From positions 3,264,001 through 3,328,000 of the forward strand of contig CBDANF010000003.1 of NCBI GenBank assembly GCA_965197475.1: a stretch of DNA of 64,000 nucleotides, written 5' to 3'. The notes beneath the pieces were generated by a model, which was not told where the DNA came from, made no database searches, and saw only the letters and a program-made list of their open reading frames with translations. Position 1 is the first letter of the stretch. The number at the start of each line of letters is the position of its first letter. Below are positions 52,609-54,882 of this stretch, piece by piece. Origin of the DNA: Candidatus Poribacteria bacterium. Lineage in GTDB: Bacteria; Poribacteria; WGA-4E; WGA-3G. The position numbers and the translations under genes are program-made.

Positions 52609-52724
52609 TGTTTTGCGTTATTTATAGTTTGTATCAAATGACCCCATGAGTTATACTATTAGTATTCGTTAAACTAACGAGTAGATGTCCTCGGATCCCC
52701 GATAATCTATTCATGGAGGTCAAT

Positions 52725-53525
52725 ATGAACCGCAAGAAGGATACCGCTTACGGTATCACTCGGCTCGAATCCAAGAATGCCAGAGCCGCGATTATTCAGA
52801 AGATTTCAGCAGACTTTAATCTAATGCCTCTCGTTGCTGAAGCCTACTATAAACAGATTTCCACCTACTTTGAACAACACGCCGATGTGCACCTGACATC
52901 AGGGCAAATCTGCTACGAGGCAGTCGCCGCAGAGGAACCCGCAGGTAAACATATCGCTTTAGCGAAAAAAGTTTCCTGTCGGCTAACTCTCAATGACACA
53001 AACGCCGATCTTGAAGTCTTAGCGAATTATGGTCTCGCAGGACTCAGACGGCATCGGATCCTCCGATTGACCCAAGAAGCTTATGACCAAGATGCCTTAC
53101 TGAGCTACGAGGATTTAGCTGTATTATTAACCACCAGTCCTGCTACAGTCAAACGCGACATTCGACACTTGAAGCAGGATGGGTATTTCGTTATGACGCG
53201 CGGGACGAAACACGACATGGGCCCCGGCACTTCTCATAAAACCCAGGTCCTGGAGTTATATTTCAAAGCCTATACCTTCACCGAAATCGAGAAAAAGACG
53301 AACCACAGCGAACGAGCTGTCTACCGCTACTTGAAAGACTTTACACAAGTCGCTACGCTCCATCATCAAGGCTTTCCTAACGCACAGATACGCCTGATCA
53401 CCCATCTATCTGACCGGTTGATCCGCGAGTATCTCTCACTCTATGAGGAATACCAACACACAGATCGCATAACCCAACTCCTTCACCCAGAACCTGAGGA
53501 CACAAAAAAGGGGGACCTCTCATGA
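52725..53525 (+). CDS. DUF1670-like protein A
   Basis: RLTQEAYDQDALLSYEDLAVLL..SPATVKRDI, TRGTKHDMGPGTSHK, HSERAVYRYLKDF; GGAGG RBS before ATG 52725. Confidence 0.8.
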   Translation: MNRKKDTAYGITRLESKNARAAIIQKISADFNLMPLVAEAYYKQISTYFEQHADVHLTSGQICYEAVAAEEPAGKHIALAKKVSCRLTLNDTNADLEVLANYGLAGLRRHRILRLTQEAYDQDALLSYEDLAVLLTTSPATVKRDIRHLKQDGYFVMTRGTKHDMGPGTSHKTQVLELYFKAYTFTEIEKKTNHSERAVYRYLKDFTQVATLHHQGFPNAQIRLITHLSDRLIREYLSLYEEYQHTDRITQLLHPEPEDTKKGDLS

Positions 53526-54406
53526 GCAAACCTCTAACCCGCACGCAAATCAACGAGAAGAAATTCAGACGCATCAACGATAAGTCCCTACGACAGTTGC
53601 TCATTCACCGCTTTCTCAATGACTATGGTTATGACAAAGGCGAAGTCACTGCCACCGCCATTGTTGATGATATTCTTAAGACCGTTGAAGACTATTTCGT
53701 GATTACCCTTCCTTTGGAGAAACTCGCCACCGGCGATCAACTCCCGGATGAGCGTTTCTTGAGTTATGGACAACTCGTTTGGATGGCCGTCCCTATTGAA
53801 GAGCATCCAGAAAGAGGAAAGTCCATCGTCAAAACCCGCATGAAACCCGTCATCCTGACTTACCTCGCCGCAGAGGATATTGAATCCTTTCGCAACGGTT
53901 TCACCTCCCGGCAATTGCGGATCAATCGCTTGGTCCGCTGGTGTCATCAAGCTTATGACCAAGGGGCATTATTGACACAACTCGACTTGGCAGTTTTGCT
54001 CAATGTCTGCGATGCCGTTGTCTGTGATTATGTTAATGAATGGCAAAAAACCACTGGAGAACTCTTGCCCACCCGTGGCAATATCCATGACTTATCGGGG
54101 GCTATTACCCATAAGAAAGAGATCATAACCCTCTATCTTCAAGGACATCTCACCCCCAGGATTGCCGCAAAGACCAAACACTCTAAGGAGGCAGTTGACC
54201 GATACATTCGCGATTATGAGAGCGTCAAAGTCGTTCGGAAAGCAACCGCAGATATTGATAAAATCTCACAGATTACACGACTTTCTAAACGCGTCATCTC
54301 TCAATATCTCGACCTCATACCGCAGCACCAACTCCAAGCCATAGATGCAGACCTTGCCAATTCAGACTCAAACGATGAAGCCACTCACCAAGGAGAAGCC
54401 CAATGA
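53522..54406 (+). CDS. DUF1670-like protein B
   Basis: GQLVWMAV, RWCHQAYDQGALLTQLDLAVLL, PTRGNIHDLSGAITHK, HSKEAVDRYIRDY; ATGA overlap with protein A. Confidence 0.8.
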   Translation: MSKPLTRTQINEKKFRRINDKSLRQLLIHRFLNDYGYDKGEVTATAIVDDILKTVEDYFVITLPLEKLATGDQLPDERFLSYGQLVWMAVPIEEHPERGKSIVKTRMKPVILTYLAAEDIESFRNGFTSRQLRINRLVRWCHQAYDQGALLTQLDLAVLLNVCDAVVCDYVNEWQKTTGELLPTRGNIHDLSGAITHKKEIITLYLQGHLTPRIAAKTKHSKEAVDRYIRDYESVKVVRKATADIDKISQITRLSKRVISQYLDLIPQHQLQAIDADLANSDSNDEATHQGEAQ

Positions 54407-54473
54407 GACCCTAATCCTATGTTCCCGACGAACTTTACTTCGCAAAACCGGGGCAGGTGCCTTGAAAATATGG

Positions 54474-54502
54474 TTGACAACCGCTACTGGTTTTGCTATA
54501 CT
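54474..54502 (+). promoter_or_regulatory. Near-consensus sigma70 promoter inside the right end of the DUF1670 element
   Basis: TTGACA-17 nt-TATACT with extended -10 TG. Confidence 0.75.
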
Positions 54503-54508
54503 TTAGAC

Positions 54509-54620
54509 ACGTTTATCGCTAAACGCATCATTTCTCAAAGAGGATGCTCGCGATCCCAACGCAACCCACTCATCAACGATCGCTGGGAAGCCAATAAACA
54601 TCAGCCTTCCAGCTATCCTA
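54509..54620 (+). ncRNA. Candidate structured non-coding RNA of the DUF1670 element
   Basis: Four back-to-back stems (CGTTTA/TAAACG, GCATC/GATGC, GCGATC/GATCGC, GCTGGGAAG/CTTCCAGC) fill the space between the promoter and the right TIR. Confidence 0.5.
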
Positions 54621-54633
54621 TGGTCATTTGATA

Positions 54634-54882
54634 CTATTTCAGAATCAACATTTTGCGCGTAGCCGTGTAATCCCCAGCTTTGAGCATATAGAAATAAACA
54701 CCACTCGCCACGCGTTCACCGATTTCGTTTCTGCCATTCCAATGGATAGCACGGGCACGGCTCCGATACATACCCGCAGGCTGATGCCCTAACGTTATCT
54801 CCCGCACCACGATGCCACGCATATTGAAAATCGTCAGCGACACCTTCGCAGGTTTTGCAAGCTGATAAGGTATCCACGTTTC
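54634..54882 (-). pseudogene. Orphan C-terminal sorting domain fragment
   Basis: Begins abruptly at ETWIPYQLAKPAKV and ends RKMLILK; no PNPFNP, signal peptide or passenger domain. Confidence 0.8.

What the first reader, a model, noticed from the sequence alone, without database searches (positions are those of the whole stretch)
52631..54634. TIR-bounded 2-kb mobile element whose only proteins are a DUF1670-like paralogue pair
Seen in sequence: perfect 13-bp inverted ends GTATCAAATGACC/GGTCATTTGATAC enclose two ATGA-coupled paralogous genes and a non-coding right end. The element splits the stop codon of a sorting-domain fragment; removing it restores AAA TAA followed by a REP about 20 bp away, as seen after the other such genes here. 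There is no target duplication beyond a possible single T, and I recognise no DDE, HUH or serine-recombinase gene. Inference: the two DUF1670-like proteins are the (hetero-oligomeric) transposase/recombinase of an unclassified IS family.
Basis: partly seen in the sequence, partly recalled or inferred. Interest (0 to 1): 0.92.

Follow-up and report, generated by a model that had tools for sequence, protein, structure and literature searches.

The report
New insertion sequence with DUF1670 proteins
This is a real, recently active 2-kb jumping gene in a sponge-symbiont genome whose only two proteins belong to an uncharacterised family with no known cutting-and-joining domain, and it inserts precisely into the last codon of one class of genes without changing their protein.

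Summary
The inverted ends, the ATGA-coupled DUF1670 paralogue pair and the non-coding right end are real. The boundaries need correcting. The element is window 52624-54637 (2014 bp), with ends ATAG(TTTG)TATCAAATGACC / GGTCATTTGATACTAT and a 2-bp TT duplication.

- **Copies.** The genome holds 18 full copies (92-100% identical), one internally deleted copy and one 432-bp MITE-like derivative. No other element there carries these ends.
- **Target.** 18 of the 20 copies sit in the last Lys codon of sorting-domain genes (…RKM[LV]IxK*). The element end supplies A+TAG, so the target protein is unchanged. A sister lineage inserts into the loop of a REP-like hairpin instead. A natural mosaic (L099) maps this target choice to the middle of OrfB, not to non-coding DNA.
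- **Proteins.** Both ORFs are under strong purifying selection. The pair and CAnnTG-centred ends recur in subfamilies only about 35-45% identical. The proteins model as helical multi-HTH folds. I found no DDE, HUH, serine, tyrosine or DEDD signature.
- **Literature.** No paper in the searched library mentions DUF1670.

Best reading: an uncatalogued IS family whose DUF1670 pair binds the ends, selects the target and probably catalyses transposition. The chemistry is unknown and not shown here.

The parts
52624..54637 (+). Whole element, 2014 bp (corrected boundaries)
   Evidence: Homology among 20 copies in the genome and among copies in other genera starts and stops exactly here.
52622..52623 (.). 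Left copy of the 2-bp TT target duplication
   Evidence: All 20 own copies and 61 of 61 relatives' sites have TT on both sides. Empty hairpin targets have two T fewer.
54638..54639 (.). Right copy of the TT duplication. With base 54637 it forms the Lys codon (AAA on the minus strand) of the target gene.
52624..52643 (+). Left terminal inverted repeat ATAG-TTTG-TATCAAATGACC. Relative to the right end it carries a 4-base insertion.
   Evidence: The CAnnTG-centred core recurs in distant subfamilies.
54622..54637 (+). Right terminal inverted repeat GGTCATTTGATACTAT. Its last four bases, read on the minus strand, give A + TAG to the target gene.
52725..53525 (+). orfA, DUF1670, 266 aa from the ATG behind GGAGG (ORF listing gives 52713, 270 aa)
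   Evidence: PF07900 E 4e-62. Database relatives are mostly 266 aa. S:N = 52:8 between sublineages. Model pLDDT 84.4.
53522..54406 (+). orfB, DUF1670 paralogue, 294 aa, start overlaps orfA's stop (ATGA). Candidate target selector.
   Evidence: PF07900 E 1.2e-61. 35% identical to OrfA. S:N = 43:5 and 29:6. Model pLDDT 86.7. 18 type-specific positions against 1 in OrfA, and the L099 mosaic.
54407..54637 (+). Non-coding right end. Probably holds extra protein-binding sites and an outward promoter. Function unexplained.
   Evidence: No conserved ORF. Variable in length among lineages (a 35-nt block is missing in one). The type-2 lineage holds an internal copy of TCATTTGAT.
54474..54502 (+). Sigma-70-like promoter TTGACA-17-(TG)TATACT pointing out of the right end
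   Evidence: 11 of 12 matches with an extended -10. The hexamers are conserved across lineages. No transcript start is shown.
54516..54553 (+). Weakly supported hairpin in the right end
   Evidence: RNAalifold on 18 sequences gives 11 pairs here, 2 of them with compensatory changes. The total consensus energy is only -0.58 kcal/mol.
54634..54843 (-). Target: 69-aa sorting-domain-like ORF ending …TRKMLILK. Its stop TAG (54634-54636) and the third base of its last Lys codon come from the element.
52618..52623 (-). Original Lys + stop (AAA TAA on the minus strand) of the target gene, displaced to the far side of the element
   Evidence: Of the 20 own copies, 19 have a left flank that begins with the reverse complement of AAR+TA/TG. 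Of the relatives' 51 motif sites, 49 have the reverse complement of AAR + stop there.

Best explanation
An autonomous insertion sequence of a family that I could not find catalogued. Its host is a Candidatus Poribacteria sponge symbiont.

**Structure and proteins.** The element (window 52624-54637) has imperfect terminal inverted repeats around a CAnnTG-type core. It makes a 2-bp TT duplication. It encodes only two translationally coupled DUF1670 paralogues, each a helical protein with about three HTH-like units.

**Proposed working (inferred).**
- OrfA and OrfB act together as a hetero-oligomer.
- They bind the dyad-like sites in both ends.
- OrfB's middle part (residues about 117-170, the segment before and including the winged-helix recognition helix) reads about 20 bp on one side of the target, which fixes the orientation.
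- The complex then breaks and joins DNA at a TT.

**Targets.** In the window's lineage the target is the 3' end of sorting-domain genes (…R-K-M-[LV]-I-x-K-stop). Insertion falls after the second A of the last Lys codon. Because the element ends in …CTAT, the gene reads AA+A TAG and its protein is unchanged. A sister lineage uses the loop of a REP-like hairpin.

**Chemistry.** It is unknown. The candidates are the residues invariant in both paralogues: R118, Q126, R163-G164, H167-D168, H175-K176, H198, R205-Y206 and Y240 (OrfA numbering). The outward promoter in the right end could drive orfA/orfB across an end-to-end junction if a circular intermediate forms. That last point is speculation.

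**Shown here:** mobility, boundaries, duplication, target specificity, selection on both genes, and the link between this protein family and these ends. **Inferred:** end binding, the division of labour, and catalysis.
For: **Mobility and boundaries.**
- The genome holds 18 full copies at 92.1-100% identity (8 of them at 99.9% or more), plus 1 deleted copy and 1 432-bp derivative that keeps both ends.
- Identical end points are seen in 20 of 20 own copies and in other genera.
- All 58 matches to the end sequences in the genome belong to these 20 copies. No second element shares the ends.
- All 39 DUF1670 matches in the genome lie inside copies.

**TT duplication.**
- Occupied hairpins have GAG+6T | element | TT+CTTC.
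- The hairpin occurs 70, 42 and 34 times per strand in three genomes (these totals include any copies left uninterrupted; occupied ones are split by the element and cannot match). The commonest form among the places listed has 6 T in all.

**Target.**
- 18 of 79 motif-matching gene ends in the genome are occupied, which accounts for 18 of the 20 copies.
- In relatives, 51 of 61 sites are at such ends, and 49 of those 51 have AAR+stop on the far side. 5 of the 61 are in hairpin loops.
- Unoccupied Lys-stop ends are split between AAG and AAA in roughly the same proportion as the left flanks of occupied sites.
- G000 C2 around position 23060 is an empty site orthologous to the occupied L080 site.

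**Proteins needed by the element.**
- Synonymous changes far outnumber non-synonymous ones between sublineages (A 52:8, B 43:5 and 29:6).
- The A+B overlapping pair is kept in subfamilies 31-45% identical to a distant representative, on contigs of about 1.7-2.4 kb. Significant inverted ends were found in 3 of 11 tested. Short CAWWTG-centred ends were seen in 4 more. The termini TTTGTGTCATATGAC and GGTGTCATWTGATACTAT resemble the window's.
- Distribution is patchy with variable copy number: 17 of 61 relatives and 36 of 151 genomes of the phylum.

**Acting together.**
- Natural fusions with 2 and 3 DUF1670 units exist, and one copy has a 585-aa A-B frame.
- The complex prediction gave weak support: ipSAE 0.35 against a best control of 0.00. 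At that mark 58 of 80 solved complexes and 2 of 110 mismatched pairs pass, but only 7 of those 80 solved complexes passed at a score of 0.60 or under. Partner pLDDT was at least 68 and contact agreement at least 41%.

**OrfB as selector.**
- 18 positions have disjoint residue sets between 45 type-1 and 9 type-2 OrfB sequences, against 1 in OrfA. They cluster at OrfB residues about 117-135 and 163-169.
- L099 is 86-93% identical to type 2 in the left end, orfA, the orfB 3' half and the right end. Yet it has the type-1 residues in that cluster and sits at an …RRMLILK* gene end.
Against: - No catalytic domain is recognisable. Pfam, NCBIfam, PHROGs and PADLOC give only DUF1670 and HTH families.
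- Both models are helices plus one beta hairpin.
- Foldseek against the PDB gives nothing at E <= 0.001, only weak HTH regulators and Pax paired domains. A PDB sequence-profile search gives nothing relevant.
- Several of the invariant residues (H198, R205-Y206) lie in what looks like an ordinary HTH motif and could simply contact DNA.
- No excision product, circle junction or same-strain empty allele was seen. The run contigs were too fragmented, and the one 2010-bp skip has sides of only 23 bases with unknown letters between.
- The OrfB-target correlation rests on two clades plus one mosaic locus.
- In the distant subfamilies only 3 of 11 inverted repeats exceed all shuffles.
Confidence: 0.7

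Rival explanations
1. The DUF1670 pair only recognises the ends and the target, as architectural or selector proteins. DNA cleavage and joining are done by a host enzyme, such as a chromosomal recombinase, topoisomerase or nuclease, recruited by them.
For: No catalytic fold or motif was found in either protein. Both look like multi-HTH DNA binders. Elements that exploit host recombinases are known (recalled: Xer-exploiting integrative elements).
Against: - The family is spread over bacteria and at least Methanosarcina (control). The helper would therefore have to be near-universal.
- The genome has only one PF00589 recombinase, a 203-aa protein.
- A 2-bp duplication does not fit Xer-type exchange (established knowledge of tyrosine recombinases, recalled).
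- Residues H, K, H, Y are invariant in 34 of 34 and 50 of 50 diverse sequences, which is unusual for pure DNA reading.
Confidence: 0.2
2. The element is non-autonomous cargo. A canonical transposase encoded elsewhere moves it, and the DUF1670 proteins are regulators or passengers.
For: No known transposase domain lies inside the element. MITE-like derivatives show that the ends suffice in cis.
Against: - No other element in the genome carries these ends.
- Both genes are under strong purifying selection between element sublineages.
- The pair and similar ends travel together down to about 35-45% identity, on contigs that hold nothing else.
Confidence: 0.05
3. Target choice is RNA-guided. A transcript from the outward promoter in the right end pairs with the target, as bridge or seek RNAs do in IS110/IS1111.
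For: - There is a strong, conserved promoter-like site at 54474-54502.
- About 130 nt of non-coding sequence lie between it and the end.
- The element inserts site-specifically, including into REP-like hairpins, as IS1111-type elements do (recalled).
Against: - RNAalifold finds almost no conserved structure (-0.58 kcal/mol over 18 sequences).
- There is no Rfam match.
- No 7-mer complementarity to the targets beyond scattered chance-like hits.
- One lineage lacks 35 nt of the region.
- Distant subfamilies have only 0-11 nt after orfB.
- L099 has a type-2 right end (86-90% identical) but a type-1 target.
Confidence: 0.04

Closest known systems
IS630 / Tc1-mariner elements
   Same: Short terminal inverted repeats, a 2-bp target duplication, and end recognition by tandem (paired-like) HTH units. 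The only weak structural neighbours beyond regulators include Pax paired domains.
   Different: - Those transposases carry an RNase-H-like DDE/D domain. None is present here.
- The duplication is TT, not TA.
- There are two paralogous proteins instead of one.
- The target is about 20 bp and orientation-specific, rather than a bare dinucleotide.
IS110 / IS1111 family
   Same: Site-specific, orientation-specific insertion, in one lineage into REP-like hairpins. A very short shared core on both sides. Non-coding DNA with a promoter near an end.
   Different: - IS110 uses a DEDD (RuvC-like) recombinase and a structured guide RNA (recalled).
- Here there is no PF01548/PF02371 match and no conserved RNA structure.
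- Clear inverted ends are present.
- The target tracks a protein segment.
Tn7 TnsD / attTn7 'safe site' insertion
   Same: A dedicated DNA-binding selector reads the conserved 3' coding end of a gene and places the element where the gene product is not harmed (recalled for Tn7/glmS).
   Different: - Tn7 inserts downstream of the stop, has five proteins including DDE and endonuclease subunits, and makes a 5-bp duplication.
- Here insertion is inside the last codon, the element itself rebuilds codon and stop, there are dozens of paralogous targets per genome, and there are only two small proteins.
XerC/XerD-type paralogous tyrosine recombinase pairs
   Same: Two paralogous proteins that could each serve one half of a dyad site. 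Invariant H-K … H … R-Y with spacings (23 and 8 residues) close to the HxxR … H … Y of tyrosine recombinases. This resemblance is recalled, a lead only.
   Different: - No PF00589 match.
- hhalign of the OrfA-type profile against the genome's own tyrosine recombinase gives probability 0.25%.
- The predicted fold differs.
- A 2-bp rather than a 6-8-bp overlap.
IS3-family orfA/orfB elements
   Same: Two consecutive overlapping ORFs, the first HTH-rich. One copy and some lineages have fused forms. An outward promoter could act on a circle junction.
   Different: In IS3, OrfB is a DDE domain made by frameshifting. Here both ORFs are the same HTH-type family, coupled by ATGA, and no slippery site is needed.

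Membership tests
Pfam PF07900 (DUF1670) | Match to the family HMM above the gathering score (25 bits) | tested here: met
   OrfA scores 209.9 bits and OrfB 208.3 bits.
Insertion sequence (generic definition) | Several copies with identical end points in different flanks | tested here: met
   20 copies in the genome and 61 further sites in relatives.
Insertion sequence (generic definition) | Terminal inverted repeats and a target duplication | tested here: met
   16/20-bp inverted repeats and a TT duplication.
Insertion sequence (generic definition) | Encodes its own transposase | not testable with these tools
   The only genes are the DUF1670 pair. Selection, co-inheritance with the ends and the lack of any partner element support it. 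Activity is not shown.
DDE transposases (IS630, IS3, IS4, IS5 and others) | RNase-H-like alpha/beta catalytic domain with a D-D-E/D triad | tested here: not met
   - No such Pfam or NCBIfam match. The only IS hit is IS1 at E 0.056, over an HTH stretch.
- The models have a single beta hairpin.
- Only one acidic residue reaches 90% conservation in both paralogues.
Serine recombinases (IS607, resolvase/invertase) | N-terminal resolvase catalytic domain with a nucleophilic Ser | tested here: not met
   Only HTH_7 at E 0.13. Resolvase chains appear at Foldseek E 1.4 over the HTH region. No invariant Ser.
Tyrosine recombinases (PF00589) | Phage_integrase catalytic domain with R-K-H-R-H/W-Y | tested here: not met
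   No Pfam match. hhalign probability 0.25% against the genome's own member; this is a weak test with a single-sequence template.
HUH transposases (IS200/IS605, IS91) | HUH motif on a beta sheet plus catalytic Tyr; no inverted ends | tested here: not met
   No Y1_Tnp or Y2_Tnp match. The fold is helical. The element has inverted ends and a duplication.
IS110 family | DEDD_Tnp_IS110 and Transposase_20 domains, and a structured guide RNA | tested here: not met
   No match. No Rfam hit. RNAalifold gives -0.58 kcal/mol.
T9SS C-terminal sorting domain (the target, not the element) | Match to Por_Secre_tail or CHU_C above the gathering score | tested here: inconclusive
   For the 69-aa fragment, FlgD_ig scores 32.1 bits (cut-off 27), CHU_C 24.3 (27) and Por_Secre_tail 15.8 (27). 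'Sorting domain' is therefore a likely but sub-threshold label.

The most novel reading that the evidence does not exclude
DUF1670 proteins are a previously unrecognised class of DNA transposase/recombinase. A heteromer of two all-helical, HTH-built paralogues binds the ends, reads a roughly 20-bp target through a swappable segment of one subunit, and itself cuts and joins DNA. It would use an active site made of the invariant His/Lys/His/Arg-Tyr residues, unrelated to the DDE, DEDD, HUH, serine, tyrosine and Cas1 enzymes. The family has about 1000 clusters at 50% identity and occurs in bacteria and archaea (Methanosarcina acetivorans). It would then be a large overlooked group of site-specific mobile elements, and a compact protein-programmed integrase.
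Probability: 0.45. Interest if true: 0.95.

Novelty: new variant of a known kind. Interest (0 to 1): 0.82.

Why it matters
- It gives a function to a sizeable domain of unknown function. The family has 1017 representative clusters at E <= 0.001 among 1.84 billion representatives.
- It adds what appears to be an uncatalogued IS family.
- If the pair is catalytic, it is a new chemistry or fold for transposition, in a two-gene, 1.7-2.0-kb package.
- The target behaviour is unusual and directly testable. Insertion falls inside the last codon of a gene family, and the element rebuilds the codon and the stop. It therefore has dozens of harmless landing sites per genome, and about 40% of the best-matching ends in this genome are already filled.
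- A natural mosaic points to a short OrfB segment as the specificity module. That suggests protein-level retargeting of a small integrase.
- For sponge-symbiont genomics, it explains a class of 2-kb repeats that break assemblies and sit antisense to secreted-protein genes.

Tried and rejected
**Guide-RNA idea.** I searched both element types for 7-mers identical or complementary to their targets and found only scattered hits, mostly in coding DNA. RNAalifold on 18 right ends gave -0.58 kcal/mol. Rfam gave only a sub-threshold miRNA hit outside the element.

**Small ORF behind the right-end promoter.** By eye in the alignment it is not conserved in length or presence.

**Similarity of the target to the element's own ends ('ATCAA').** It is not kept once codon third positions are considered, so I dropped it.

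**Reads.** All four runs laid were contigs.
- There was no clean excision or circle joint.
- The joint 52611>54622 (skips 2010) has sides of 23 bases with unknown letters between, and I do not count it.
- The joint 52658>54489 (skips 1830; sides 31 and 25) may be a deletion derivative.
- Contigs of sponge metatranscriptome runs cover parts of the element. Contigs cannot show a transcript, its start or its level.

**Empty sites.** A strict search for empty sites in G000 for 62 occupied sites of relatives found none. A looser search found one empty site, one shared insertion and one site holding the MITE-like copy. The genus-wide search with the window locus was swamped by paralogous sorting-domain hits.

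**Structure searches.** Foldseek against the PDB for both models gave nothing at E <= 0.001. The ESM Atlas gave scores of 0.81 or below, small archaeal HTH clusters only. A PDB profile search gave nothing relevant.

**Other collections.** Plasmids and phages gave no match. PADLOC gave only E > 0.01 HTH hits.

**HD-phosphohydrolase idea** (from the conserved H-D … H … H … D). There is no Pfam HD match. It remains untested speculation.

**Tyrosine-recombinase idea.** hhalign gave probability 0.25%.

**Literature.** 'DUF1670' returned 0 papers and 'PF07900' 0 papers. The searches 'Poribacteria + insertion sequence + transposase', 'ISNCY + Methanosarcina' and a phrase search listed nothing relevant; I saw only search listings and abstract starts. 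ISfinder could not be queried. My statement that no ISfinder family uses DUF1670 is recall only. Supplementary files of papers were not consulted.
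Full report
**What is at the coordinates.** The sequence shows GTATCAAATGACC at 52631-52643 and its reverse complement at 54622-54634.
- Two ORFs lie between them on the plus strand, 52713-53525 and 53522-54406. The TGA of the first overlaps the ATG of the second.
- A GGAGG five bases before the ATG at 52725, and the 266-aa length of most database relatives, make 52725 the likelier start of orfA.
- Both proteins match Pfam DUF1670 (PF07900) at E 4e-62 and 1.2e-61. Weaker matches are only to HTH families.
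- The two proteins are 35% identical over 192 residues.
- NCBIfam, PHROGs and PADLOC add only HTH-type or sub-threshold hits.
- On the minus strand, directly right of the element, a 69-aa ORF (54634-54843) ends …TRKMLILK. It matches FlgD_ig above its threshold, and CHU_C and Por_Secre_tail below theirs.

**It is a multi-copy mobile element, and the boundaries shift by a few bases.** The window is G000:C3:3264001-3328000.
- The 2004-bp stretch matches 22 pieces in the 5.7-Mb genome. They comprise 18 full-length copies (92.1-100% identical, eight at 99.9% or more), one copy with an internal deletion (C3:434730-436501) and one 432-bp derivative that joins element bases 1-286 to 1854-2004 (C3:94120-94551).
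- In all 20 copies the seven bases ATAGTTT before the stated start and TAT after the stated end are also conserved. The same holds in copies from other genera that are only 74% identical overall.
- The element is therefore window 52624-54637 (2014 bp). Its ends are ATAG-TTTG-TATCAAATGACC and GGTCATTTGATACTAT, an inverted repeat with a 4-base insertion on the left.
- A scan of the whole genome for either end with up to two mismatches gave 58 matches. All of them belong to these 20 copies.
- All 39 DUF1670 matches in the genome lie inside copies.

**Target duplication.** In three genomes of two other genera (G047, G038, G060) the element sits in the loop of a 13-bp-stem hairpin.
- The left flank is GAAACCGAGTTTT-TT and the right flank is TT-CTTC-AAAACTCGGTTTC.
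- The hairpin pattern occurs 70, 42 and 34 times per strand in those genomes. Occupied copies are split by the element and cannot match. The commonest form among the places listed is GAG-TTTTTT-CTTC, with six T where occupied sites have six plus two.
- This gives a 2-bp TT duplication, or equivalently a 2-bp crossover core present once in the target.

**Target specificity in the window's lineage.** The right flank of every copy reads, on the minus strand, as the last codons of a gene: …R-K-M-[LV]-I-x followed by AA.
- The element then supplies A and TAG.
- The left flank begins, on the minus strand, with AAG or AAA followed by TA or TG in 19 of the 20 own copies: 12 AAGTA, 5 AAATA, 2 AAGTG and 1 aberrant.
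- A six-frame scan of the genome for [RKQ][RKQ][MLF][VLIATM][LIVFM]x[KRQN]-stop found 79 gene ends, of which 18 are followed by the element.
- The 34 unoccupied Lys-stop ends are split 20 AAG to 14 AAA, roughly the proportion seen on the far side of occupied sites.
- In 69 loci from named Candidatus Poribacteria MAGs, both element ends were found in 62, and both flanks were long enough in 61.
- Of those 61 sites, 51 lie at such gene ends, and 49 of the 51 have AAR+TAA/TAG/TGA on the far side. Five lie in the hairpin loop and five elsewhere, two of them at near-motif ends.
- Insertion is thus after the second A of the final Lys codon, always in one orientation. The target protein is unchanged, because the element's terminal …CTAT restores AAA TAG.
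- For the window copy, the displaced original AAA TAA is at 52618-52623.

**Empty and shared sites.** I compared the flanks of relatives' copies with the G000 genome.
- One orthologous site is empty in G000. At C2 around 23060 the gene ends …ATT ATG AAA TAA, where L080 is occupied.
- One insertion is shared (G000 C3:434730 and L072).
- One site holds the MITE-like copy in G000 and a full copy in L075.
- The flanks are only 70-86% identical, so these comparisons support the position of insertion but not its base-exact details.
- Public-run contigs gave no clean excision or circle joint.

**Both genes matter to the element.** Between sublineages in the same genome, synonymous changes far outnumber non-synonymous ones: orfA 52:8 and 43:8, orfB 43:5 and 29:6.
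- Copies are mosaics of sublineages. One has orfA like the window copy but a divergent orfB, and another is the reverse.
- One copy carries a 1-base insertion that fuses the genes into a 585-aa frame.
- Across Poribacteria the family is patchy with variable copy number. It was found in 17 of 61 relatives searched and 36 of 151 genomes of the phylum sample, all in three families, with 1 to 18 or more matches per genome.
- Among 14 control genomes only Methanosarcina acetivorans has the family.

**The family at large.** phmmer of OrfB against 1.84 billion representatives found 1017 proteins at E <= 0.001 and 64 at E <= 1e-30. They include forms of about 520 and about 940 aa, which Pfam reads as two and three DUF1670 units with no other catalytic domain.
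- Many close relatives of OrfA come from contigs of about 2.0 kb, as expected for collapsed repeats.
- Contigs holding relatives of a distant representative (P0149, 35% identical to OrfB) again show an overlapping pair of about 270 and about 250-270 aa.
- Four copies of one subfamily share homology that begins at …CCCTTTGTGTCATATGAC and ends at GGTGTCATWTGATACTAT. This is strikingly like the window's ends.
- Other subfamilies have GGATCAAATGAGCC…/…GGCTCAGATGATAC, GGATCAGGTGACCCC…, TGCCATATGACA… and GCCAAATGACA….
- A blind search for inverted repeats beat all 100 shuffles in 3 of 11 testable loci. In 4 more it recovered short CAWWTG-centred arms next to both ORF ends, at scores near the shuffle maximum.
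- In these compact subfamilies only 0-11 bases follow orfB before the right arm.

**What the proteins look like.** AlphaFold2 models built from diverse alignments are confident: OrfB pLDDT 86.7, OrfA 84.4.
- They consist of an N-terminal helical part, one beta hairpin, a long helix, a winged-helix unit, a conserved loop and two further three-helix units.
- Foldseek against the PDB found nothing at E <= 0.001 for either. The weak rows are HTH regulators, TFIIB-like factors and Pax paired domains.
- A PDB profile search found nothing relevant, and the ESM Atlas gave only leads at 0.81 or below. The VIA libraries were not available.
- Residues conserved in both paralogues across diverse sequences are R118/R139, Q126/Q147, D134/D155, R163-G164/R185-G186, (H167-)D168/D190, G170/G192, H175-K176/H197-K198, H198/H220, R205-Y206/R227-Y228 and Y240/Y262.
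- The spacing H-K…(23)…H…(8)…Y recalls the HxxR…H…Y of tyrosine recombinases. That is my recollection only.
- hhalign of the OrfA-type profile against the genome's single PF00589 protein gave probability 0.25%, so no homology is supported.

**Do OrfA and OrfB act together, and who does what?** The complex prediction gave weak support: median ipSAE 0.35, best control 0.00, partner pLDDT at least 68, contact agreement at least 41%. At that mark 58 of 80 solved complexes and 2 of 110 mismatched pairs pass, but passes at 0.60 or under are rare among true complexes (7 of 80).
- Translational coupling and the natural fusions point the same way.
- I compared 45 elements at sorting-domain ends with 9 at hairpins. 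OrfB has 18 positions with non-overlapping residue sets and OrfA has one. In OrfB they cluster at residues about 117-135 and 163-169, ahead of and within the winged-helix recognition helix.
- The two groups are clades, so this alone is confounded.
- One element, L099, breaks the confounding. It is 86-93% identical to the hairpin lineage in its left end, orfA, orfB 3' half and right non-coding end. Yet it carries the other lineage's residues in that OrfB cluster and sits at an …RRMLILK-stop gene end.
- This ties target choice to the middle of OrfB and argues against the non-coding right end as the determinant. It is a single locus.

**The right end.** The 231 non-coding bases contain TTGACA-17-(TG)TATACT at 54474-54502, pointing outward. 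It scores 11 of 12, and the hexamers are conserved across lineages.
- Downstream there is a weak hairpin with 2 compensatory pairs, but the consensus energy is only -0.58 kcal/mol.
- In the hairpin lineage there is an internal copy of the right-arm core TCATTTGAT.
- I read this region as accessory binding sites plus a promoter. That promoter either reads antisense into the target gene or would read into orfA across an end-to-end junction. Neither reading is shown.

**Verdict.** Whether the DUF1670 pair is itself the enzyme remains the open question. That question is what makes the finding interesting.

Noticed in passing
window 51655-51835: A 181-bp MITE-like insert with roughly 15-bp inverted ends (CAGGACTTACGCATT… / …AATGCGTAAGTCCTG), flanked by TTTAA on both sides. 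It splits what looks like one gene (ORFs 51062-51694 and 51822-52037). Contigs of two DNA runs skip exactly these 181 bases with long sides (162 and 186), which is an empty allele.
   Followed up: partly
window about 52470-52610: REP-like palindromic units (GGTGCGGTTAGGAAACCGCACC and variants) lie between the MerR-like fragment and the element. The summed contig depth there is 100-1000 times that of the flanks.
   Followed up: no
window 52324-52461 (-): A 45-aa ORF matching the MerR HTH (29.6 bits against a cut-off of 28.2). It looks like a gene fragment.
   Followed up: no
G047:C1:1894819-1897594 and 2032411-2033497 (also 1111454-1112803): The hairpin AAACCGAGTTTT-N6-AAAACTCGGTTT, which the sister lineage targets, occurs in regular arrays spaced about 193 or about 350 bp. 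I did not examine what lies between the units.
   Followed up: no
G000:C3:685919-687923: This element copy has a 1-base insertion that fuses orfA and orfB into one 585-aa frame. It mimics the naturally fused 2- and 3-unit DUF1670 proteins seen elsewhere.
   Followed up: partly
G000:C3:2069666-2070181 (L163:1462-2073): This is the only PF00589 (tyrosine recombinase) match in the 5.7-Mb genome. It is a short 203-aa protein made of the catalytic domain only.
   Followed up: no
window 54902-56242 (-) and 54634-54843 (-): A 446-aa leucine-rich-repeat protein ends 58 bases before the free-standing 69-aa sorting-domain ORF. The sorting domain may be a detached or frameshifted tail of that gene.
   Followed up: no
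P0216 (400 aa): One distant relative joins a DUF1670 unit to a DnaG-type CHC2 zinc ribbon (PF01807, E 3e-8).
   Followed up: no
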